In this document: positions 3,146-32,865 of the stretch, piece after piece
Position numbering within the stretch: the stretch's first letter is position 1
Layout of the letters: each line of letters opens with the position of its first letter
Source of the DNA: a virus
Lineage: Duplodnaviria > Caudoviricetes
Strand: one strand, 5' to 3'
IMG/VR virus record: IMGVR_UViG_3300048599_000773
Coordinates: 1-54,685 of that record
DNA: 54,685 nucleotides
Program-made: the position numbers and the translations under genes
Notes under the pieces: model-generated
What the model saw: only the letters and a program-made list of their open reading frames with translations
What the model was told of the DNA's origin: nothing
Database searches by the model: none

Positions 3146-3168
3146 ACTTTTTGGAAAGGAGGCCAGTG

Positions 3169-3732
3169 ATGATGAAAATGGAAACCTACGCCCGGAAGAT
3201 TATCAACCCCTGGCCGGAACAAAAGCGCCGCGCCTATCTCGCCGCCATCGAATGGGACTTACGAACCTATGAAGCGATGCAAACGGAACTCCGGGAACTT
3301 CAGGCCGATATCGACGAGCTGGCCGCCCCTCCGGCCACCGACATCCGAGGAAATATCTATTCGATACCCCGCAGCCGGCCCGATGAACTGTTCCCGGAAT
3401 ACTTGAGAAGCCACCCGGCCCGGCCCCTCTCCGACCCGACCCCGGATCGGGCAGAACTGATCAGCGAATACCGCGCCCGGGTCCTCTGCGCCACCGAATA
3501 CCGGGAAACCATCCGGCGGCTGAACGCCATCAACCGGCTAATAACTAGATTGGAGCATTCACAAAAGCCGGACGACCGATTAAAATTACAACTCTTAAAG
3601 GCCAAATACTTCGATCAGGATAAATCCGATCAGCAGATCGCCATTGACTTGCATATCTCGGAACGGACTTTCCGCAATTGGAAAAACGGCCTACTGTTAG
3701 AAATCGCCAAACAACTGGGAATGGTGGTCTAA
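3169..3732 (+). CDS. RinA/ArpU-like late transcriptional activator
   Basis: C-terminal sigma-region-4-like HTH (QQIAIDLHISERTFRNWK); last gene before the packaging module; RBS AAGGAGG. Confidence 0.7.
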   Translation: MMKMETYARKIINPWPEQKRRAYLAAIEWDLRTYEAMQTELRELQADIDELAAPPATDIRGNIYSIPRSRPDELFPEYLRSHPARPLSDPTPDRAELISEYRARVLCATEYRETIRRLNAINRLITRLEHSQKPDDRLKLQLLKAKYFDQDKSDQQIAIDLHISERTFRNWKNGLLLEIAKQLGMVV

Positions 3733-9376: not shown

Positions 9377-10507
9377 ATGCCTAATACTTTCATTACTCCT
9401 TCCATTGTGGCCCGTGAGGCTTTGATGGTCTTGCGGAATAACTGCGTGATGGCGAACCTGGTTCACCGGGATTACAAACGGGAATTCGTCGAAGGCCGGG
9501 GAACCATCGTCACCATCCGGAAACCGGCTACTTTTACCGCCAACGAATTTGACCGGACAGCCGGGATTACGATTCAAGATGTCTCCGAAAGCAGTACCAA
9601 TGTAACTATGGACACGATTCTGGATGTATCCTTTGAAATCACCACCGAGCAACTGACCCTCTCCATCGACGACTTTTCCAAACAACTGATTATACCGGCA
9701 ATGCAGGCCTTCGCTCAGAAAATTGACACTTTAATTTTAAATTTGTATAAGGATATCCCCTATTACTCCGGCGCGGCCAACGCCGAACTGGATGGCGTCA
9801 GCGAGATTACCGACGCCCGGAAACGGCTGAATGATCAAGCCGTACCTCTCACCACCCGGCGGTTTACCATCGGGACCATGGCGGAAAGTAAATTATTGCA
9901 ATTGGAACTCTTCATTGCCGCCGATAAGGTGGGCGATAACGGCACGGCCTTACGGGAAGCGTCGCTGGGCCGGAAGTTGGGCTTTGATTTCTTCATGGAC
10001 CAGAATACCCCGAAACATACCAAAGGCACGGCGGCAGGGACCGCCGCATTGACGGCGACCGCCGGGGCCACTACCGGCACGATTGCCACCGGTGGCGCGG
10101 GCGGCACTTTTAAGAAAGGTGATCTCTTCACCGTAGCCACCATCACCGATAAAACCTTCGTGATTACCGCCGATGCCACCCTGGACGGTTCCGGCAACGG
10201 CACGATTAACTTTTATCCGGCGGCTCTGGCGGGTGGAATCTCGGCGAAAGTTGTAACCCTGGTTGATAGCCATGTCAATAACCTGGCCTTTCATAAAAAC
10301 GCCTTTGCTTTCGTGAACCGGCCTTTGGCGTTACCCCAAGGGGTTGGCCCCGGCCAGAAAGCGATTGTGGATTTTGAAGGGTTCGGCCTCCGGGTGGTCT
10401 TCGGGTATGACATCACTAAGAAGAAAGATATTTGTTCCATTGATACGATCTGCGGGTTTAAAACCCTGACCCCGGAATTGGCCTGTAGGGCGATATCGCA
10501 GAATTGA
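9377..10507 (+). CDS. Major capsid protein (P22 coat-like family) with Ala/Gly/Thr-rich insertion domain
   Basis: MPNTFITPSIVAREAL start, GTIVTIRKP, NLAFHKNAFAFVNRPL, GFKTLTPELA end. Confidence 0.9.
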   Translation: MPNTFITPSIVAREALMVLRNNCVMANLVHRDYKREFVEGRGTIVTIRKPATFTANEFDRTAGITIQDVSESSTNVTMDTILDVSFEITTEQLTLSIDDFSKQLIIPAMQAFAQKIDTLILNLYKDIPYYSGAANAELDGVSEITDARKRLNDQAVPLTTRRFTIGTMAESKLLQLELFIAADKVGDNGTALREASLGRKLGFDFFMDQNTPKHTKGTAAGTAALTATAGATTGTIATGGAGGTFKKGDLFTVATITDKTFVITADATLDGSGNGTINFYPAALAGGISAKVVTLVDSHVNNLAFHKNAFAFVNRPLALPQGVGPGQKAIVDFEGFGLRVVFGYDITKKKDICSIDTICGFKTLTPELACRAISQN

Positions 10508-10899
10508 TGGTGGTGAGTGATTATGGATATTCCATTTGTAACATCGAACGAGGTTCAAGCCTGGGTGGGAATCTATTCACCCTACCAACCGATATTGACC
10601 GTTTAATCCTACGGGCCAGTGAATTAATCCGGCGTAAGACCTATCATCGAACGGATGACACGGAACGGGTGGAGGATGTGAAAAATGCCACTTGCGCCCA
10701 GGTCGAATACTGGCTCCAGATTGATGAGGCCAGCGATATCACCGGGCCGCTGGGACCAATGAAGATTAAGGATTTCAGCTTCAACTCAAAGTTTACGGTC
10801 CTAGCGCCCCGGGCCAAAGATCTGCTGTTGGATGCCGGAATGCTCTATAAAGGAGTTAATTCCGGCAAAAGTTCTTTTCAAGGGATGGATGTGAAATGA
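10504..10899 (+). CDS. Head-tail adaptor (gp15-like), possibly frameshifted at the 5' end
   Basis: RLILRASELI, VKNATCAQVEY, LAPRAKDLLLDAGML motifs; an alternative ATG at 10523 is in another frame. Confidence 0.7.
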   Translation: MMVVSDYGYSICNIERGSSLGGNLFTLPTDIDRLILRASELIRRKTYHRTDDTERVEDVKNATCAQVEYWLQIDEASDITGPLGPMKIKDFSFNSKFTVLAPRAKDLLLDAGMLYKGVNSGKSSFQGMDVK

Positions 10900-11297
10900 A
10901 GATACCGGCCTACGCTTTACGGATTCGGGCGAAATTCTATACTGAAAATACCCAACTTGGCGTATTTAAACTCGGTTTACCCGGCCTGGAAACACTCATC
11001 CCCTCCCCAACCCGGTTTCGGATTGAACCCAAGGAGATTGGGAGCGAGGAACGGGCGGCGGACGGTACTTTAAACGTAGATAGTATCGCTATCAAAGATC
11101 ATTATCGTCTTTATTACGAGATGCTGACCGACGCCCAGGCCCAGACCATCCGGAATGAATTGAACCGAAAAACCGATTTATCCTTCAAATACCTTGATAA
11201 AACCCGGACTGTCATCGGGCTTTCTTTCCCTTGCGAGTTAACCTCGGCCTCCCCGGTGCTATGGGAGAAAATCATTTTGGTATTACGGGAGAAATGA
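10896..11297 (+). CDS. Virion protein, distal-tail-like (putative)
   Basis: ERAADGTL..D.IA.K motif typical of small siphophage distal tail genes; ATGA coupling. Confidence 0.5.
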   Translation: MKIPAYALRIRAKFYTENTQLGVFKLGLPGLETLIPSPTRFRIEPKEIGSEERAADGTLNVDSIAIKDHYRLYYEMLTDAQAQTIRNELNRKTDLSFKYLDKTRTVIGLSFPCELTSASPVLWEKIILVLREK

Positions 11298-11298
11298 C

Positions 11299-11880
11299 AT
11301 GATCAACGTATCCGAGGAATTTAAACAAAACATTTTTAAAACCGGGCGGAAGATTCATGGCAGGGTGACAATTTTTTTTACAAATTCCCTGCGCCGGACC
11401 TTTACCGAAAAAGACCTTTTTTCCTTGCGGCTATTGGAACGGAAAGAATTTTTCGACGGTCATCTATCTGCGGGGAATATTGGCACGAATCAACTGGAAA
11501 TTATTTTAAATAACTCCAGCCGGATGTTTGATCAAGACAACCCGGACAGCGAATTGTATGGGTTTTTACAGCCGGGGAAACGTGTCGAACCTTACCTTGG
11601 GTTGGAACTGGAAAATGGGGGGATCGAGTGGGTCACATTAGGGGTTTTTTGGTCGGGAGAATGGGAATCCGCTGAACATAGCATCCAGTGTAAAACCTTA
11701 TGTGTCGATAGATTGGAACTCCTCGACCGGACCACCTATGAGACCGGAAAAGTAATCCCCACCCCCGCAGTCATACTACGTACCGATGACAATTTTGAGG
11801 AGTGGTTGCAAGGTTCGCTCTGGAACGTGAAAGCCACCCCGGATGGAAAATTAACCCTGGACTTGGGAGGTGAAATTTAG
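11299..11880 (+). CDS. Tail-tip/hub-like protein (resembles the N-terminal part)
   Basis: MINVSEEFKQ start; YLGLELENGGIEWVTLGVF; DRLELLD motif. Confidence 0.55.
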   Translation: MINVSEEFKQNIFKTGRKIHGRVTIFFTNSLRRTFTEKDLFSLRLLERKEFFDGHLSAGNIGTNQLEIILNNSSRMFDQDNPDSELYGFLQPGKRVEPYLGLELENGGIEWVTLGVFWSGEWESAEHSIQCKTLCVDRLELLDRTTYETGKVIPTPAVILRTDDNFEEWLQGSLWNVKATPDGKLTLDLGGEI

Positions 11881-13457
11881 TGGATGCGAAAATCTCGAAA
11901 AACCTTGACGGCGTAACGGTTAGCGACGAACTTAACAATCAATCCGGCTCCGGGATTCGGACTTTGAAACACGATACTTTCTTCGGCGGAACGGAATTCA
12001 CCGTCCGGACAGCTCCCGGCGGAGGCGGGACCCTGTTGACTCAAAACACCCATTACGTTTTGGAGAACCAAAACGCCCGGCTCACCTCCGAGGCCGGGAA
12101 GCCGGTCTATATCTCCTGGCGGGTTACGGATAGCACCTATCAAAATATCAATCTTTATGTGAGTTACAAGACCATCGGAGACTTCACGGAAGCGGCGGAT
12201 ATCAATGAGTTGATAAATTTGATAAATACTCATACCCATGATTACTCCGGGGTTTATGCCGCCTTGAACCATAATCATGATACCCGGTATTTCACCGAGA
12301 CGGAACTTGGCGCGACCGAGGATGGAAACGCCGGAGCGGATCGAATTGGAGCCACGCCGGTGAGCGGGATTGATGGCGATACGGTTCAAGAACAAATGGA
12401 ATCCATGGTGGAACTGGTGAACGGTAAATCAGGTCTATTAAATAATATGCTGGGTGTCTGGCCGTTTCTGCAATCAAAGCTGAAGAACATCACCATTGAC
12501 GGCGGGGTCGCCAGTACCACTCCGAACCTGGGGATTTGCTATTATAACAATTATGTTTATACCATTGGAAGCTACCGGGACATTCTGAAATTCAATGCCC
12601 GGACTTTTACGCTGGAAGATACGATTACGCCCGATACCCCCATCAGCGGCAGTTTTTTGGATATTGTCTGTGACGGCTTGAATTTTTACGTGCTGCATGT
12701 AAGCGGTTCGCTGATCTACGTTTACAAATACGATTTGAACTTTAACCATATCGCTCATACCGGCAATATGCCGACGGATTCCGGGGGGATGATTGAAATG
12801 CTGGATGAGGCCACTATTGGCCTGACCCTGGATTATATTTTTGTGGCGGGCCGTAATCCCAGTCAGCAGAGTTTTTGCCGGATTCCGAAAGCGACGATGA
12901 CCGCCCCTACATACAGCACGGCTTTTGGGGCTGACGAATACGGAGTCGGGGGGATGGCCTTTGACGGAAAATATATCTATTTCGGTCATATCAACAGTCC
13001 GGCCAAGTTTACCAAGTGGAACATGAACGGGACCAAGCAGGGTTCCACGCTAACCCTGGCCTCCGGGGATAACCGTTGCGAGGATTTGCTTTTTGTAGCC
13101 TTGCCCGGACAAGCGCCGGTATTGATGGCGGCGCTGTATAGCTCTCCCTCGAAGATTTGCGCGATAAATCCGGCTACGCTGACCCAGACGGGAACCACTT
13201 ACACCTTCGCCGCCGGGGAAAACAATTGCCGGGCTTTGACTTTTGACGGTTTATATGTCTGGGTGGCCTGTGACACCAGCCCGGTGAAGTTGTTGAAGTT
13301 CAATGCCACTCCGGCGAAGATCCTTAACACTCTTACCCTGGCTGCCGGAGTAGGTGGAATTTGCGGGATGGCTTTTGATGGGACCTATGTCTGGGGAAGG
13401 ACGCTTACTAACCCGTTGAAGGTTTTCGTCAAAGATACGCTTTCGGCTTTTACTTGA
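11880..13457 (+). CDS. Tail fibre/receptor-binding protein with C-terminal beta-propeller-like repeats
   Basis: HTHDY and HNHDTRY motifs; repeated (A/T)FDG.Y(I/V)(Y/W) blades and TLTLA.G repeats. Confidence 0.7.
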   Translation: MDAKISKNLDGVTVSDELNNQSGSGIRTLKHDTFFGGTEFTVRTAPGGGGTLLTQNTHYVLENQNARLTSEAGKPVYISWRVTDSTYQNINLYVSYKTIGDFTEAADINELINLINTHTHDYSGVYAALNHNHDTRYFTETELGATEDGNAGADRIGATPVSGIDGDTVQEQMESMVELVNGKSGLLNNMLGVWPFLQSKLKNITIDGGVASTTPNLGICYYNNYVYTIGSYRDILKFNARTFTLEDTITPDTPISGSFLDIVCDGLNFYVLHVSGSLIYVYKYDLNFNHIAHTGNMPTDSGGMIEMLDEATIGLTLDYIFVAGRNPSQQSFCRIPKATMTAPTYSTAFGADEYGVGGMAFDGKYIYFGHINSPAKFTKWNMNGTKQGSTLTLASGDNRCEDLLFVALPGQAPVLMAALYSSPSKICAINPATLTQTGTTYTFAAGENNCRALTFDGLYVWVACDTSPVKLLKFNATPAKILNTLTLAAGVGGICGMAFDGTYVWGRTLTNPLKVFVKDTLSAFT

Positions 13458-13459
13458 TT

Positions 13460-14500
13460 TGGAGCCCCTTGAGGGGTGGCGGGTGACATGACAATCAGAA
13501 ATGACATCGGGCGGGGGGTGGTGATCGGAGGCGACTCAGGCGCGGCGGTGGGAGCAGACCTGATATATTCGGCCCGCAGAAGTCTGTGTGGCGCCGCGCC
13601 GGACATACTTGACCGCAGACAGATAGGCATCGGAGGCGACTGGCTTGAATTGGCAAAGAAATGTTTTAGGCCCGCGAAGGCGACTTAGCGGCCAGTGCCC
13701 CTTGGAGCCAGCAACTTCTTCGAATCCTCTTTCGGGCGTCGTATAAACCTATTATGTAAAAACCGCAGACTTCTTCGAATGGGCAATACGGGTTTACATA
13801 ATGCGCGTTTATACGATGACCAGGCTGGTGGAGAGGGGCGCGGCCGTGGACAGAACGACCCAGACGATAGAGAGCGGAGGATCAGCCCGGAGGTTTTCGC
13901 CAGTCGAGGAAGCCGGGCTTACCTTTTTGCTTACTTTCGGCTTGCTCGACTGGTCGGCGGTTATTTAGGCCGGCGCGTTCTTCCGGCAGGTTGTCCAAGC
14001 AGCCCGATATTTTGGCCCAGTTTACGGAGATAAATGCTTGGTCTGCCTGATCGGGGTCGGAGGATTGGCCCGGAAGGATTGATGGTGGAGCCAGGATTTA
14101 GCCTGGTCTGGCGAAAGGTGATTTGCAGCAGGCTTTAGCCGACGGAGAATGAACTGGGTGGGACTCTAAAGGGGACGGAGTTGACCCGGTTTCGACTGGA
14201 CCCGGAATGGTTTTTGGTTTTGGGATTTTGAATGGGCGGGCTTGACGGGCGAGAGGATTTTTGGCTTTTTCGTTTACGGCTGAAAGAATTTGAGCCGGAA
14301 ATCGGCCCGGAATTAAGCTTTCATTTGGCCTTTCGGCTGGAGTCCGCGCTGCCCTATTTTCAGCCTGGATAAAGTGCGGTCTCCGGATCGGCCCGGATTT
14401 ATTCCTTCAGATTGAAATCGGTGAATTAGCGGACATTTTGGCTGCTTCCTTGTGGGATTTTAGACCGGGGTTTGATGGTGAGCTATCCATAGGCGACAGA
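13460..14500 (+). ncRNA. Candidate large (~1 kb) structured non-coding RNA
   Basis: No convincing ORF; many nested complementary arms with G-U wobbles in the + sense, UUCG/GAAA-type loops and short internal direct repeats (see findings). Confidence 0.55.
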
Positions 14501-14520
14501 AATTGATTTTAAAGGGGGTG

Positions 14521-14691
14521 ATGGCAGTGAGTGAGTTGGAAGTGGTGGTGGGAGTGTTAAAAGAAAGGGTGGATAACATGGAAAAAACGCAGGATGGACT
14601 CATTAAGAAGCTGGATGTGTTTCAGAATACGTTGATGGTCACTTTGGGCGGGGTTATTGTGAACCTGATTGTGTTGTTGTTGAAAAAATGA
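14521..14691 (+). CDS. Small XhlA/holin-like membrane protein
   Basis: Coiled coil followed by a single C-terminal TM helix; first gene of the lysis module. Confidence 0.65.
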   Translation: MAVSELEVVVGVLKERVDNMEKTQDGLIKKLDVFQNTLMVTLGGVIVNLIVLLLKK

Positions 14692-14704
14692 ACGGGAGGT
14701 TAAC

Positions 14705-15286
14705 ATGAGTACTTATACATTGATACGGCGGGACGGGACGAAATGCGAAGTCCCGTTTTTGTTTGAGAAGGGCAAATATTATATCTCGGAACATCTGCCG
14801 CAGTTTGAGAACCGGGCGCATACACTTGGATTCGCGCAACATGATACCGGGGAGGTGGTGATTTTTCAGCCATTAGTCACGTTATTTGAAACAGTACGGG
14901 CCGGGATTTCCCTGATTCGGGGCGTGGATACCCCGATCATGGTCAATTCCGGCTACCGTTCGCCGGAGTATCAACGGGCGCTTTATGAAGCGGATTTGCG
15001 AGCCAATGGCGGAAAACCCAGCGGCAAGGTCGCCAAGCCGGGGCATTCGCCCCATGAGACGGGGGCGGCGATGGATTTGGGGTTACCCAAGGGATTTGGG
15101 GCGAAGGAATTCGCCGCCTTTATCCGGAGAGTGAGCCTGGAGCTACAGTTTCCAGAGGCGCGGACGGGGTATGTCATCTATGATTACAAATTCGTCCATG
15201 TGGACTTGGTTCCGATGCTTTACCGGCCCTATACCGGGACTCCGAACCCGAATCCCGGAGCTTGGAAACCGGGGGTGATCTGGTGA
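14705..15286 (+). CDS. Endolysin, peptidase M15 family
   Basis: NSGYRS...Q, SPHETGAAMD and HVD zinc-peptidase motifs. Confidence 0.85.
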   Translation: MSTYTLIRRDGTKCEVPFLFEKGKYYISEHLPQFENRAHTLGFAQHDTGEVVIFQPLVTLFETVRAGISLIRGVDTPIMVNSGYRSPEYQRALYEADLRANGGKPSGKVAKPGHSPHETGAAMDLGLPKGFGAKEFAAFIRRVSLELQFPEARTGYVIYDYKFVHVDLVPMLYRPYTGTPNPNPGAWKPGVIW

Positions 15287-15732
15287 TGGGATGGGACCCT
15301 GCAAGCATTGCCGGTGAAATCGCGAAGAACACAGTGGGAAAATTAGTAGACGGGTTGGCCGGCCGGTTTCTGCAATCGGAGGCCGACCGGCAGAAATTCG
15401 AACTGGAGAAGGCCAAGCTATTTAATGACTTCGAACTGGAAACGATGAAGGTTTTGCAGCAACAGGAGGCGGCCTTCCGGGACTCGGTGAACACTTACGA
15501 GAATCCCGCAGGATTATCAAAATGGATACTGAATTTCCGGGCCAGTGTCAGGCCGGTGGTTACATATGAAGCGGCGATTTTACTGAATTATATTATCATT
15601 TTCGGCGGAAAGATTGATTGGGAAAACATTAATAAGATTCCGGCGCAGGTTTGGGCGATTTTTCTGGTGATTTTCGGCTTTTGGTTTGGTGGTAGAGCCT
15701 GGGCGGATGTGAGGAATGGGAAGAACGGGTAA
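15286..15732 (+). CDS. Holin (3TM, GTA-holin-like family)
   Basis: VRPVVTY and FGFWFGGR motifs; TGATG overlap with the endolysin gene. Confidence 0.75.
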   Translation: MGWDPASIAGEIAKNTVGKLVDGLAGRFLQSEADRQKFELEKAKLFNDFELETMKVLQQQEAAFRDSVNTYENPAGLSKWILNFRASVRPVVTYEAAILLNYIIIFGGKIDWENINKIPAQVWAIFLVIFGFWFGGRAWADVRNGKNG

Positions 15733-31656: not shown

Positions 31657-32865
31657 ATGAAACTAAATAAATTACCAAAACTTCACGAAAGGAAACAATC
31701 AAAGATGTTGAAAATTTTAATCGTAGGATTGATCCTATCATTTATCCTTGGAAGCAGTTTATCATCCGCCGAATTATCCTCTCTTAATCAAACATTGACG
31801 AATGAGAATACCGTCGATGCGCACTCCGCTGAACTGCTACAAAAAGTGATCGATCATACGGTTGCCGAAGAACGTCTGGTGGGTCTTCAAGTATCGGCTA
31901 AAACCGGGAATGGAGAAACATGGAATGGAGTTAGCGGCACGGTGGATAAAAAGCGAACCAAGGTTTTGGAGATCAATAATCCAATCCGGGTCGGCAGTAT
32001 AACGAAAACTTTTACGGCAGTAATCATTATGCATCTGATTGAAAAGGGTTACCTGGCATTAGATCAAAGCATCGATAATTGGTTTCCGGGTATATCCGGT
32101 TCGAACCAAATCACGATCAGAAATCTACTAAATCATTCAAGCGGTATCCCGGAAATATTGGGAATGAAAATGATGTTCGTTTCGACCATCAATCCGTGGA
32201 AGGTATGGAAGCCCGCAGAAATCATTCAAATCATTACAAGTAAAGATTTAGAGTTCAGTTCGGGTTCGAAGCATAAATACTCAAATTCCAACTATATTTT
32301 GCTGGGTTTCATTGCCGAGAAAGTTACGGGAAGGCCATTGCAAGATTTATATCGGGAAGAAATCTTAGATCCTTTGGGGTTAAAGAATACTTATTTCCTC
32401 CCATATGACTGTCCTCCGGTTGACTTAGTAAATGGTTATGATAGGAGTTTCATCCCATTCCCGGGAGGCTATGTCGTTAAAAAGGATAATACCGCCTGGA
32501 GCACTTGTGCATATGCATCCGGGGCCATGGCTTCAACCGCCCAAGATTTAATGAATTTTTATGACGCGATTATGAATAAAACCGTTGTCAGTGAAAGATC
32601 CTTCACAGCTATGACTGCTTTTGAAAATTCGAATGACAAAAATAATACCGAAGAATATTTGGACCGTTTTGGATTCGGGCTTTTCCAGTTTAATGCCGCT
32701 TATGATAACACATCCGGAAATTTAGGGATGTTCATCGGTTCGGAAGCATTAGCGCTCTATCATCCCGAAAAAAGATATGTCATCACAATCGTCGGAAATA
32801 TTTCCCGGTTTCATAAAGACCGGTTGGTTCAGGAGATAATCGGGATTATCAATCAAAAAACGTAA
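31657..32865 (+). CDS. Secreted serine hydrolase (beta-lactamase/D-Ala-D-Ala carboxypeptidase family)
   Basis: Signal-like N-terminus, GSITK (SxxK), LLNHSSG, YSN. Confidence 0.9.
   Translation: MKLNKLPKLHERKQSKMLKILIVGLILSFILGSSLSSAELSSLNQTLTNENTVDAHSAELLQKVIDHTVAEERLVGLQVSAKTGNGETWNGVSGTVDKKRTKVLEINNPIRVGSITKTFTAVIIMHLIEKGYLALDQSIDNWFPGISGSNQITIRNLLNHSSGIPEILGMKMMFVSTINPWKVWKPAEIIQIITSKDLEFSSGSKHKYSNSNYILLGFIAEKVTGRPLQDLYREEILDPLGLKNTYFLPYDCPPVDLVNGYDRSFIPFPGGYVVKKDNTAWSTCAYASGAMASTAQDLMNFYDAIMNKTVVSERSFTAMTAFENSNDKNNTEEYLDRFGFGLFQFNAAYDNTSGNLGMFIGSEALALYHPEKRYVITIVGNISRFHKDRLVQEIIGIINQKT

What the first reader, a model, noticed from the sequence alone, without database searches (positions are those of the whole stretch)
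13460..14500. ~1 kb highly structured, apparently non-coding element in the late operon of a tail-deficient prophage: candidate large ncRNA
Seen: the rest of the prophage is gene-dense, but this kilobase has no ORF with a recognisable product. It carries successive nested helices: GGCGCGGCG 13539-47 / CGCCGCGCC 13592-600 enclosing GCAGAC/GTCTGT; CTGGCT 13640 / AGCCAG 13706; CGTCGTATAAAC 13737-48 / GTTTATACGATG 13807-18 enclosing ATTATGTAAA 13751-60 / TTTACATAAT 13793-802; GGCTGGT 13823 / ATCAGCC 13881; CCAGTCGAG 13900-08 / CTCGACTGG 13945-53 enclosing AAGCCG/CGGCTT; CCAAGCA 13995 / TGCTTGG 14035; and CCGGT-TTCG-ACTGG 14186-99. Several arm mismatches are G-U wobbles in the + sense and the 3' half is G/T-rich, as expected of a + strand RNA. 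Known: large ornate phage-associated RNAs such as GOLLD and ROOL exist in Bacillota prophages. Inference: this is a member of such a class or a new class, co-expressed with virion and lysis genes.
Basis: partly seen in the sequence, partly recalled or inferred. Interest (0 to 1): 0.9.

Follow-up and report, generated by a model that had tools for sequence, protein, structure and literature searches.

The report
New large modular structured RNA family
The gene-free kilobase between the fibre gene and the lysis genes of this prophage most likely encodes a large folded RNA of a previously undescribed family, whose last two-hairpin module is repeated in tandem a variable number of times; its function is still unknown.

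Summary
Window 13458-14502 holds no conserved ORF. It is one member of a family of G+C-rich elements with conserved helices.

- **Structure.** Folding energy of the single sequence is not decisive (z -2.4, -3.0 and +0.1; one coding control -2.1). Comparison is. Helices P0 and P1 of the 5' domain, and H1 and H2 of a ~190-nt module, keep pairing through changes on both sides across three prophage lineages (0 of 500 shuffles reach the observed values).
- **Strand.** G.T outnumbers A.C 161 to 15 in helix cells, which points to a + strand single-stranded molecule.
- **Anatomy.** The core is 13458-14054 (~600 nt). The rest is one optional module, one degenerate extra module and a conserved 3' segment.
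- **Variation.** The module period is 187-198 nt, not a multiple of 3. Relatives carry one to at least five copies.
- **Neighbours.** In every prophage lineage examined, a small coiled-coil gene with a hydrophobic C-terminal stretch follows the element.
- **Other settings.** Core-sized copies also lie outside late operons in related Bacillota genomes.
- **Known families.** Rfam 15 gives no match, so this is not GOLLD, ROOL, OLE or an intron.
- **Gaps.** No RNA data were available. Expression and function are inferred.

The parts
11880..13457 (+). Upstream fibre-like / minor-tail gene (525 aa). It is context only. It is not the conserved neighbour of the element.
   Evidence: ORF. PHROG minor tail protein, E 4e-6. 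In the C7-type and L156-type lineages the element follows other genes instead: the p193 or the p133 homologue.
13464..13477 (+). P0 hairpin (GCCCC / GGGGT), starting 6 nt after the fibre stop codon.
   Evidence: Sequence. 15 of 15 cells with letters are paired, and 2 of 5 pairs change on both sides across lineages. Example: GUCCC/GGGAC in L156.
13479..13520 (+). Conserved mostly unpaired stretch (GGGUGACA ... CAUCGGGCGGGG).
   Evidence: Nearly invariant in the W-type alignment. Recognisable in C7-type, L156 and the non-prophage copies.
13539..13600 (+). P1: outer helix 13539-47/13592-600, inner helix 13554-59/13582-87, and a loop with the conserved CCUGAUAUAUUC.
   Evidence: 8 of 9 outer pairs and 2 of 6 inner pairs change on both sides. 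The inner helix shows the series GCAGAC/GUCUGC, then GCGGAC/GUCUGC (a G.U step), then GCGGAC/GUCCGC (read).
13688..13847 (+). P3 (13688-13712 with 13824-13847) enclosing P4 (13737-13760 with 13793-13818). P4 has a hypervariable loop.
   Evidence: RNAalifold consensus of 8 W-type sequences. Four P4 pairs change on both sides. The G008 copies share the region. C7-type has the two P4 helices in swapped order.
13866..14054 (+). Module 1, the only full copy here. H1 is 13900-13915/13938-13953. H2 is 13984-14000/14036-14053. The conserved linkers are GGUUUUCG and UGGUCGGCGG. The core RNA ends here.
   Evidence: R1 score 197 bits. Covariation. The L174 and L176 copies end right after this module.
14055..14243 (+). 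Optional segment: the start of a truncated module, the hairpin 14186-14199, and the motif UGGGUGGGACUCUAAAGGGG (14155-14174).
   Evidence: In alignment A8 the part holding the motif and hairpin is shared by the window, L004, L009 and L152; L153 has a divergent insert there; 5 of 10 sequences lack it. The 19-nt motif is identical in C7-type. The hairpin keeps pairing through changes on both sides in L004 and L009 (read).
14244..14391 (+). Terminal degenerate module (H1' and H2').
   Evidence: R1 score 44.3 bits, E 2e-13. Aligned in all 10 W-type sequences of A8; L007 is divergent over its H1' part.
14392..14502 (+). Conserved 3' segment with the motif UUAGACCGGGGUUUGAUGGUGAGCUAUCC (14460-14488). 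It is a candidate lysis-gene promoter or regulatory site.
   Evidence: Nearly invariant in 10 W-type sequences. Present before the small gene in C7-type and in L178. A second copy lies before the amidase-holin-terminase genes of L151. It does not meet the sigma-70 scan.
14521..14691 (+). Small gene that always follows the element in prophages: 56 aa from the ATG (62 aa from the TTG at 14503), with a coiled-coil N-terminus and a hydrophobic C-terminus.
   Evidence: ORF. No Pfam or PHROG family. The C7-type and L156-type counterparts are homologous to each other (33% identity, E 2e-13) but not detectably to this one.
14705..15732 (+). Lysis genes: M15/VanY-type endolysin (14705-15286) and a 3-TM holin (15262-15732). 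Context only.
   Evidence: Pfam VanY 3.5e-9 and GTA_holin_3TM 3.5e-4. PHROG endolysin and holin.

Best explanation
The interval is a gene for a large, G+C-rich, modular structured RNA of a family not found in Rfam 15 (nor in my four literature searches, read at listing level). It is read from the + strand.

**Shown**
- Core of about 600 nt (window 13458-14054): hairpin P0, a conserved single-stranded stretch, the nested helix P1 with an invariant loop, the P3/P4 domain, and one ~190-nt two-hairpin module (H1, H2).
- In prophages that module is reiterated in tandem. The window has one full copy, one degenerate copy and an optional segment.
- The array ends in a conserved 3' motif just before a small coiled-coil gene whose product has a hydrophobic C-terminus.

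**Inferred, not shown**
- The RNA is made by read-through of the late operon. No sigma-70-like promoter and no clear terminator lie in or before it.
- It then acts as a stable RNA or ribonucleoprotein, not as a simple cis switch.
- The reiterated modules offer repeated binding surfaces, for a protein or for each other.
- The likeliest partner is the small protein encoded next to it, in the way OLE RNA works with OapA.

My odds: about 0.85 that this is a selected + strand RNA structure, and about 0.3 for the specific partner and mechanism.
For: **Non-coding**
- The ORFs differ in place and frame among 11 relatives. The homologues of the 112-aa ORF are split over two or three frames in L003, C3, L007 and L008.
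- The repeat period is 187, 188, 196 or 197 nt.

**Covariation in the modules**
- 44 module rows: 91.1% of cells paired against 74.8 +/- 0.6 in shuffles.
- 32 of 38 pairs change on both sides, against 21.1 +/- 1.7 in shuffles.
- 0 of 500 shuffles reach either value. Slid controls pair at most 49.0%. An 11-row set gives the same result.

**Covariation in the 5' domain**
- 19 rows: 98.1% paired against 83.2 +/- 1.3.
- 12 of 20 pairs are compensated, against 6.3 +/- 1.3. 0 of 500 shuffles reach this.
- The same compensations can be read directly from the sequences.

**Strand**
- G.T to A.C is 161 to 15 in the 37 sense rows. Base composition predicts 2.2 to 1.
- Consensus fold energy is -121.6 on the + strand against -101.0 kcal/mol on the - strand.

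**G+C island**
- In L156 the element is 0.48-0.55 G+C within flanks of 0.31-0.39.

**Linkage**
- The element is followed by the small gene in W-type, C7-type (L151, L158-L161, L178) and L156-type (L156, L166), whatever gene lies upstream.

**Copies outside late operons**
- 6 loci in 5 genomes hold the 5' domain: L172-L177.
- R1 finds exactly one strong module in 2 of the 6 (L174 93.5 bits, L176 84.5 bits), one weak module in L177 (15.6 bits) and none in 3.
- A promoter-like site abuts the 5' edge in L174 and lies just upstream in L176.

**Comparator**
- The ole and oapA genes lie in tandem, ole sits in an operon yet has its own promoter, and the RNA goes to the membrane with OapA (passages read, PMC9723947).
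Against: - **No expression data.** No RNA run was available, so no transcript, transcript end or abundance is known.
- **Weak thermodynamics.** The signal in the single sequence is weak and is matched by one coding control.
- **No covariation among close relatives.** Within the close W-type relatives alone the modules show none: 91.5% paired against 91.2% in shuffles, 88 of 500.
- **Alignment bias.** The cross-lineage alignments were fitted to the model structure, which favours pairing. Seven antisense rows were left.
- **Few independent lineages.** There are about three prophage lineages plus five genomes.
- **Weak link to the small protein.** The window's version is not detectably similar to those of the other lineages. 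Outside prophages, a small coiled-coil gene lies next to only 2 of 6 copies. There it lies upstream, and I see no hydrophobic end in it.
- **A possible promoter between element and gene.** The 3' motif may be a promoter. L156 has a promoter-like site with a TG-extended -10 between element and gene. Either would loosen any co-transcription.
Confidence: 0.5

Rival explanations
1. The element is a purely cis-acting long leader or intercistronic spacer of the late transcript. It sets the timing, stability, processing or translation of the downstream small membrane-protein gene and the lysis genes, and has no function as a separate RNA.
For: - It has the same strand and direct adjacency to the small gene in all prophage lineages.
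- It starts 6 nt after the upstream stop codon.
- The window interval has 0 sigma-70-like promoters, and only 4 weak terminator-like sites against 2.0 +/- 1.7 in shuffles.
- In L156 the only strong terminator follows the small gene.
- The junction with the gene carries a conserved 3' motif.
Against: - Module number varies from one to at least five among close relatives, and length varies from 0.9 to 2.35 kb. This fits poorly with a switch of fixed geometry.
- Copies of the 5' domain lie outside late operons with no small gene downstream.
- A promoter-like site lies between element and gene in L156.
Confidence: 0.22
2. The element is an anti-defence decoy or sponge RNA. The reiterated modules mimic a host RNA or titrate a host RNA-binding defence or regulatory protein, and copy number is under arms-race selection, as with the pseudo-ToxI repeats of phage PhiTE.
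For: - Tandem copy number differs among phages whose flanking genes are 83-94% identical.
- The element is carried by prophages.
- For comparison, PhiTE escape from ToxIN involves a phage pseudo-ToxI RNA (PMC3475682; only the listing and the start of the abstract were seen, and the repeat expansion is recalled).
Against: - Module matches in host genome G001 all lie in its four prophage contigs: 8 of 8 matches on C3, C5, C30 and C7. The scan scored only 150 of 1242 first-look candidates.
- The units are about 190 nt, not about 36 nt.
- No nuclease-toxin gene lies beside the element.
- Non-prophage copies carry a single module.
Confidence: 0.1
3. The element acts at the DNA level. It could be a non-autonomous mobile element, a single-strand origin, or a recombination or packaging site whose hairpins form in DNA.
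For: - It is multi-copy: the 5'-domain model hits 5 places in G001 and 3 in G008, and G021 carries 2 copies.
- It occupies different positions in related phages.
- Non-prophage copies lie next to RHS genes, a ParA gene and an ORF I read as a transposase fragment (not tested).
- Partial copies in the opposite orientation lie beside L172 and L173.
- G.T pairs are also tolerated in single-stranded DNA.
Against: - I noticed no terminal repeats, target duplications or empty sites, though I made no dedicated search.
- No adjacent recombinase or Rep gene appears among the ORFs scanned around the window element.
- Invariant loop sequences, conserved mismatches and a G+C-rich island in an A+T-rich phage are typical of folded RNAs.
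- The orientation always matches that of the surrounding late genes.
Confidence: 0.1
4. The element is a decayed protein gene, or neutral repetitive DNA with chance hairpins.
For: - ORFs of 70 and 112 aa exist.
- The folding z-scores are weak.
Against: - The ORFs are not conserved and shift frame.
- They have no Pfam family.
- The period is not a multiple of 3.
- There is strong compensatory change and strand asymmetry.
- The element is conserved across lineages whose flanking proteins are only 47-77% identical.
Confidence: 0.03

Closest known systems
OLE RNA with its partner OapA (Bacillota)
   Same: - The core is about 600 nt, highly structured and conserved.
- The gene is embedded in an operon.
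- A gene for a small membrane protein lies in tandem (passages of PMC9723947).
- The host range lies within Bacillota.
   Different: - The Rfam OLE model gives no match.
- The neighbouring protein is a 56-106-aa coiled-coil protein with one hydrophobic end and no Pfam family. It is not a 21-kDa OapA.
- This element is prophage-borne.
- Its 3' module is tandemly reiterated.
- Binding to the neighbouring protein is untested.
ROOL and GOLLD RNAs of prophages
   Same: They are large ornate RNAs of unknown function encoded in prophages and phages of Bacillota. GOLLD rises during phage lysis (passages of 10.1101/2024.12.08.627333).
   Different: - Neither Rfam model matches.
- No tRNA gene lies in the window, whereas ROOL and GOLLD often lie near tRNA islands.
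- ROOL and GOLLD multimerise from separate identical molecules. This element repeats a module within one molecule.
ToxI antitoxin arrays and phage pseudo-ToxI repeats (type III toxin-antitoxin)
   Same: They are tandem RNA repeats. The variable copy number in a phage is recalled (PMC3475682; only the listing and the start of the abstract were seen).
   Different: - The repeat unit here is 187-198 nt with two long hairpins, not the roughly 36 nt that I recall for ToxI.
- No ToxN-like endoribonuclease gene lies beside it.
- A 400-nt non-repeated 5' domain is part of the element.
RCd22 / abiF-motif RNA of a C. difficile prophage
   Same: It is a prophage-encoded structured RNA with two repeated motifs next to a gene whose product it binds (abstract read).
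   Different: - No Rfam family of any kind, abiF motif included if Rfam holds it, matches here.
- The neighbouring gene is not an Abi_2 protein.
- This element is far larger.

Membership tests
GOLLD RNA | Match to the Rfam covariance model at or near gathering score | tested here: not met
   0 matches at gathering score in the window. GOLLD is not among the 4 rows at E up to 10 in 13300-14700.
GOLLD RNA | Frequent neighbourhood of tRNA genes in phages (passage) | tested here: not met
   ARAGORN finds 0 tRNA genes in the window.
ROOL RNA | Match to the Rfam covariance model | tested here: not met
   Also 0 matches over the element in relatives L156, L158, L160 and L172-L177. The only match there is a tRNA elsewhere in L156.
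OLE RNA | Match to the Rfam covariance model | tested here: not met
OLE RNA | Tandem oapA gene (21-kDa transmembrane protein) | tested here: not met
   The adjacent protein is 56-106 aa and has no Pfam or PHROG family. It resembles oapA only in position and in being membrane-directed. The hydrophobic end was read from the sequence, not predicted by a tool.
Group I / group II introns and small self-cleaving ribozymes | Match to any Rfam intron or ribozyme model | tested here: not met
Type III toxin-antitoxin RNA array | Short tandem repeats (about 36 nt, recalled) directly upstream of an endoribonuclease toxin gene | tested here: not met
   The period is 187-198 nt. The downstream gene encodes a 56-62-aa hydrophobic-tailed protein, followed by an M15 endolysin.
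The family defined in this report (models R1 and R2) | 5' domain with P0, the CAUCGGGCGGG stretch and P1 with loop CCUGAUAUAUUC | tested here: met
   Window 13457-13607 scores 166 bits with R2. The window sequence was in the seed, so it matches by construction. Independent members are L156 (55 bits), L159 (43 bits), L172 (106 bits) and L173-L177 (31-57 bits).
The family defined in this report (models R1 and R2) | At least one two-hairpin module (H1, GGUCGGC linker, H2 with the conserved U.U mismatch) | tested here: met
   Window 13866-14054 (197 bits, a seed member) and 14244-14391 (44 bits, not in the seed).

The most novel reading that the evidence does not exclude
This is a new class of ornate RNA that builds within one molecule what ROOL and GOLLD build from many. 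Tandem two-hairpin modules pack against each other or onto copies of the small tail-anchored coiled-coil protein. Together they form a membrane-tethered RNA-protein assembly that the prophage uses late in infection, to time or gate lysis or to exclude competitors. Module number would be tuned by unequal recombination.
Probability: 0.15. Interest if true: 0.85.

Novelty: new variant of a known kind. Interest (0 to 1): 0.7.

Why it matters
- **Few such RNAs are known.** Large bacterial and phage RNAs with extensive conserved structure are few. Those read about here (OLE, ROOL, GOLLD) gave RNA-only homo-oligomers and cages and a membrane ribonucleoprotein.
- **This one is well suited to study.** Its core of about 600 nt is well supported by covariation.
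- **It offers a natural dosage series.** Near-identical prophages carry one to at least five tandem copies of one module.
- **It suggests a partner to test.** A candidate partner gene lies immediately beside it.
- **It raises an open question.** The element sits at the boundary between virion and lysis genes, where an RNA function has not, to my knowledge, been described.
- **It appears in two settings.** It also occurs outside prophages in the same bacterial class, so its function can be compared between phage and cell.

Tried and rejected
- **Loose search pattern.** It returned 119 or more stretches. An HMM scan of the 128 loci then held found the module only in contigs already known, plus L076.
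- **Scan of GenBank phages.** Distant blastn found no match.
- **RNA runs.** No RNA holder was listed.
- **The search of earlier findings.** Earlier notes were not consulted.
- **Whole-interval energies.** They come without shuffles and mostly reflect G/U content.
- **Covariation within W-type modules alone.** It is not above the shuffles. The RNAalifold run on the MAFFT alignment of the modules missed H1.
- **Helix Ha (GGAGGAUU with GGUUUUC).** It pairs in 90% of cells. In some C7-type modules the two strands are adjacent, so I do not rely on it.
- **Mini-ORFs behind the Shine-Dalgarno-like GGAGG and GGAG motifs.** Rejected: the start codons are absent from many modules (read).
- **A loop-loop pairing between the H1 and H2 loops (GGGCU with AGCCC).** The changes I read do not support it.
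- **Diversity-generating retroelement or invertible segment.** No reverse transcriptase or invertase appeared among the ORFs I scanned. Not every ORF of the window was scanned.
- **The 3' motif as a promoter.** This is plausible (TTGAC-like, 17-18 nt, TATCC) but does not meet the scan's rule, so it stays open.
- **Chance pattern matches.** Six of the 8 pattern matches in genome contigs, and L157, have no module match (L157 also read).
- **The G062 match.** At 25.6 bits it lies inside a 366-aa ORF, and I treat it as false.
- **Complex prediction.** Not used, because it takes proteins only.
Full report
**1. The observation**

The window is a 54,685-bp provirus record, and the interval occurs once in it.

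Positions 13458-14502 lie between two ORFs:
- the stop of a 525-aa fibre-like ORF (11880-13457);
- a small ORF (TTG at 14503, ATG at 14521, ending at 14691).

Downstream follow an M15/VanY endolysin and a three-TM holin. Upstream lie a terminase, an SPP1-type portal, a scaffold protein, a P22-type coat protein, a head-tail adaptor and two small tail-related proteins.

Only short ORFs of 70, 112 and 55 aa or fewer lie inside the interval, and none has a Pfam family.

Folding energy alone does not set the interval apart:

| Segment | z-score | Shuffles folding as well |
|---|---|---|
| Leader, + strand | -2.43 | 1 of 100 |
| Module, + strand | -3.03 | 0 of 200 |
| Last 448 nt, + strand | +0.11 | 52 of 100 |
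| Fibre coding control | -2.09 | 5 of 100 |
| Lysin coding control | -0.30 | 38 of 100 |

The minus strand folds worse: +0.22, -1.87 and +0.80.

**2. Relatives and anatomy**

A search with the fibre protein gave eight viral contigs, 87-94% identical in protein. In all of them the same interval is present, but its length runs from 888 to 1795 nt.

The length differences come from a tandem repeat. Its period is 187, 188, 196 or 197 nt, which is never a multiple of 3.
- An HMM of the unit finds one strong copy in the window.
- It finds one to three strong copies in each relative, plus partial copies and a weak terminal copy.
- With the covariance model, L009 has at least five.

Each unit has two long hairpins, H1 and H2, joined by conserved linkers.

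The window therefore reads as five parts:
- a 408-nt non-repeated 5' part;
- one full module (13866-14054);
- an optional segment (14055-14243), whose part holding the conserved motif is shared by 4 of the 10 aligned sequences;
- one degenerate module (14244-14391, 44 bits);
- a nearly invariant 3' segment.

**3. More distant lineages**

An exact motif from H2 found only the same clade of viral contigs, plus two loci of one Bacillota MAG.

That genome (G001) holds copies on four contigs. One of them (C7, locus L151) is divergent. Its coat protein is 76% identical to the window's, and its p193 protein 50%. There the element is about 2.1 kb. It follows the p193 homologue and precedes a 106-aa small gene, and the fibre gene comes after that.

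- Four viral contigs and genome G002 (L178) share this C7-type layout. Their elements are 2.0-2.35 kb.
- A P1-loop pattern found a third lineage, L156, which is also G027 locus L166. There the element follows a p133 homologue in an A+T-rich phage. It is again followed by a homologous 97-aa small gene and then a strong terminator.
- In L156 the element is a G+C island of 0.48-0.55 within flanks of 0.31-0.39.

The constant neighbour is therefore the small gene, not the fibre gene.

That small protein family is rare and unnamed:
- a search of 5.8 billion clusters returned 7 matches, some of them the lineages' own proteins, and none has a Pfam domain;
- the window's 56-aa version shares its architecture but has no detectable sequence similarity to the others.

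**4. Evidence for a selected structure**

Within the W-type modules alone there is no covariation beyond the shuffles. Across lineages it is strong.

| Set | Cells paired | Shuffled | Pairs changed on both sides | Shuffled | Shuffles reaching observed |
|---|---|---|---|---|---|
| Modules, 44 rows | 91.1% | 74.8 +/- 0.6 | 32 of 38 | 21.1 +/- 1.7 | 0 of 500 |
| 5' domain P0 + P1, 19 rows | 98.1% | 83.2 +/- 1.3 | 12 of 20 | 6.3 +/- 1.3 | 0 of 500 |

- For the modules, slid partners pair at most 49.0%.
- An 11-row module set gave the same result.
- These alignments were fitted to the models, which favours pairing. Seven weak antisense rows were left.

The same compensations can be read directly from the sequences:
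- H2: GUCCAAGC/GCUUGGUC in the window becomes GUCCGGGC/GCCCGGUC in C7-type, with the U.U mismatch kept.
- P1 outer helix: GGCGCGGCG/CGCCGCGCC becomes GGUGGCUG/CAGCCGCC, GGCGACCG/CGGUCGCC or GGCGAUGG/CCAUCGCC.
- P1 inner helix: the series A-U, G.U, G-C.
- P4 among the W-type: four pairs changed on both sides around a hypervariable loop.

**5. Strand and level**

In module helices of the 37 sense rows there are 161 G.T cells against 15 A.C cells. Base composition would give 2.2 to 1.

The consensus fold of the 5' part is -121.6 kcal/mol with 104 pairs on the + strand. It is -101.0 kcal/mol with 89 pairs on the minus strand, where several pairs appear as A.C.

This argues for a + strand single-stranded molecule and against double-stranded palindromes. 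Single-stranded DNA cannot be excluded on these data.

**6. Not coding**

The longest ORFs differ in place and frame from one relative to the next. Homologues of the 112-aa ORF fall into two or three frames in four relatives. The 70-aa ORF is 48-53% identical in protein in six of the eleven relatives, and the leader DNA is 75-80% identical in the five of them that one search compared.

**7. Known families**

Rfam 15 gives nothing at gathering score in the window. At E up to 10 in 13300-14700 it gives only chance-level rows.

It also gives nothing over the element in the C7-type, L156-type or non-prophage relatives. There is no tRNA gene in the window.

Literature searches did not turn up a described RNA of this layout:
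- terms GOLLD, ROOL, prophage;
- structured RNA, tandem repeats, prophage, lysis, intergenic;
- large noncoding RNA, bacteriophage, covariation, metagenom, new class;
- pseudo-ToxI, repeats, phage.

I read the listings, two abstracts, and passages of two papers. Supplementary files were not seen.

**8. Distribution and non-prophage copies**

| Genomes searched with the 5'-domain model | Genomes with a match |
|---|---|
| 101 (G001 and its relatives) | 9 (one, G062, probably false: it lies inside an ORF) |
| 58 of its class | 8 |
| 151 sampled across the phylum | 2, both already known members of that class |

The genomes that are not prophage late-operon cases are G003, G008 (two loci), G013, G020 and G021.

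Their flanking genes were scanned with Pfam:
- RHS-repeat genes at 3 of 6 loci;
- ParA at one locus; the ORF beside it I read as ParB, without a test;
- a secretin at one;
- MraZ at one, where an adjacent ORF reads as a transposase fragment (not tested).

In the L174 and L176 copies the element consists of the 5' domain, a middle part and exactly one module, about 580-700 nt, and it ends just after H2. R1 finds only a weak module in L177 and none in L172, L173 or L175.

- L174 has a promoter-like site whose -10 box, TACAAT, lies at the 5' edge; L173 has TACAAT at the same place (read).
- L176 has a promoter-like site just upstream. It shares with L172 and L177 a conserved ~150-nt upstream module that holds terminator-like hairpins.
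- Two of the six have a small coiled-coil gene just upstream on the same strand. I see no hydrophobic end in its product.

The window's 13458-14054 thus corresponds to the family core.

**9. How it most likely works**

Shown:
- a conserved, modular, + strand structure;
- a variable number of modules;
- constant linkage to the small gene in prophages;
- 0 canonical promoters and no clear terminator inside the window's interval.

Inferred:
- The RNA is made with the late transcript. In the L174 and L176 copies a promoter-like site suggests its own promoter.
- It persists as a folded RNA.
- It acts through repeated binding surfaces.

The nearest working analogy is OLE RNA. That is a ~600-nt RNA in an operon with its own promoter, in tandem with oapA, whose membrane protein binds it and takes it to the membrane. 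I give about 0.3 to this specific partner idea.

The rivals are a purely cis-acting leader for the lysis-associated gene, a decoy or sponge RNA under copy-number selection, and a DNA-level or mobile element.

The conserved 3' motif (14460-14488) recurs in L151 in front of the amidase-holin-terminase genes. This suggests a shared control site for lysis-related genes, but it does not fit the sigma-70 scan.

**10. Verdict**

- Function and expression remain untested.

Noticed in passing
window 15999-46589: Right of the lysis genes the G+C content drops to about 0.36. The ORFs read as a defence island: an Eco57I-type methylase/restriction protein (1078 aa), a C5 methylase, an OLD-family AAA_15+TOPRIM protein next to a UvrD-type helicase (a Gabija-like pair, my reading), a type I restriction system (HsdM, HsdS, HsdR) and a GmrSD-type endonuclease. 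A beta-lactamase-family protein lies at 31657-32865. No tail genes are among them.
   Followed up: partly
window 3151-3732: This ORF lies upstream of the small terminase gene. It has weak HTH_23 and DUF1492 matches. By recall, DUF1492 is related to ArpU-type late-gene activators. It may be the late regulator.
   Followed up: no
L151 17403-18460 (minus strand): In the C7-type prophage an amidase-like gene and a holin-like gene sit at the start of the late operon, before the terminase genes. They are preceded by the same ~30-nt motif that ends the RNA element.
   Followed up: partly
L172 3250-3400, and the equivalent stretches of L176 and L177: Three non-prophage copies from three genomes share a conserved ~150-nt stretch upstream of P0. 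It holds an A-tract/hairpin/T-tract (a terminator-like structure in both directions), a TAAAAT box and a second short hairpin followed by a T-run. It may be a regulated leader.
   Followed up: partly
L172 3461-3636 (+) and L173 1477-1556 (+): Weak partial matches to the 5' domain lie on the opposite strand, back to back with the main copy.
   Followed up: no
window 13737-13818 versus L151 8200-8290: The two nested helices of P4 occur in swapped order and on swapped arms in C7-type. The sequence UUUAUACGAUGRCC lies in the 3' arm in the window and in the 5' arm in C7-type.
   Followed up: partly
window 13524-13536 and 13629-13641: A 13-nt direct repeat, ATCGGAGGCGACT, is present at both places in some relatives and absent in others. 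This produces 13-nt indels in the 5' part.
   Followed up: no
window 10504-13457: Only four ORFs (131, 133, 193 and 525 aa) separate the coat gene from the element. There is no tape measure, tube or sheath gene.
   Followed up: partly
L156 7781-7852: A tRNA gene (Rfam, 58 bits) lies about 6 kb downstream of the L156-type element, beyond a restriction-modification gene pair.
   Followed up: no
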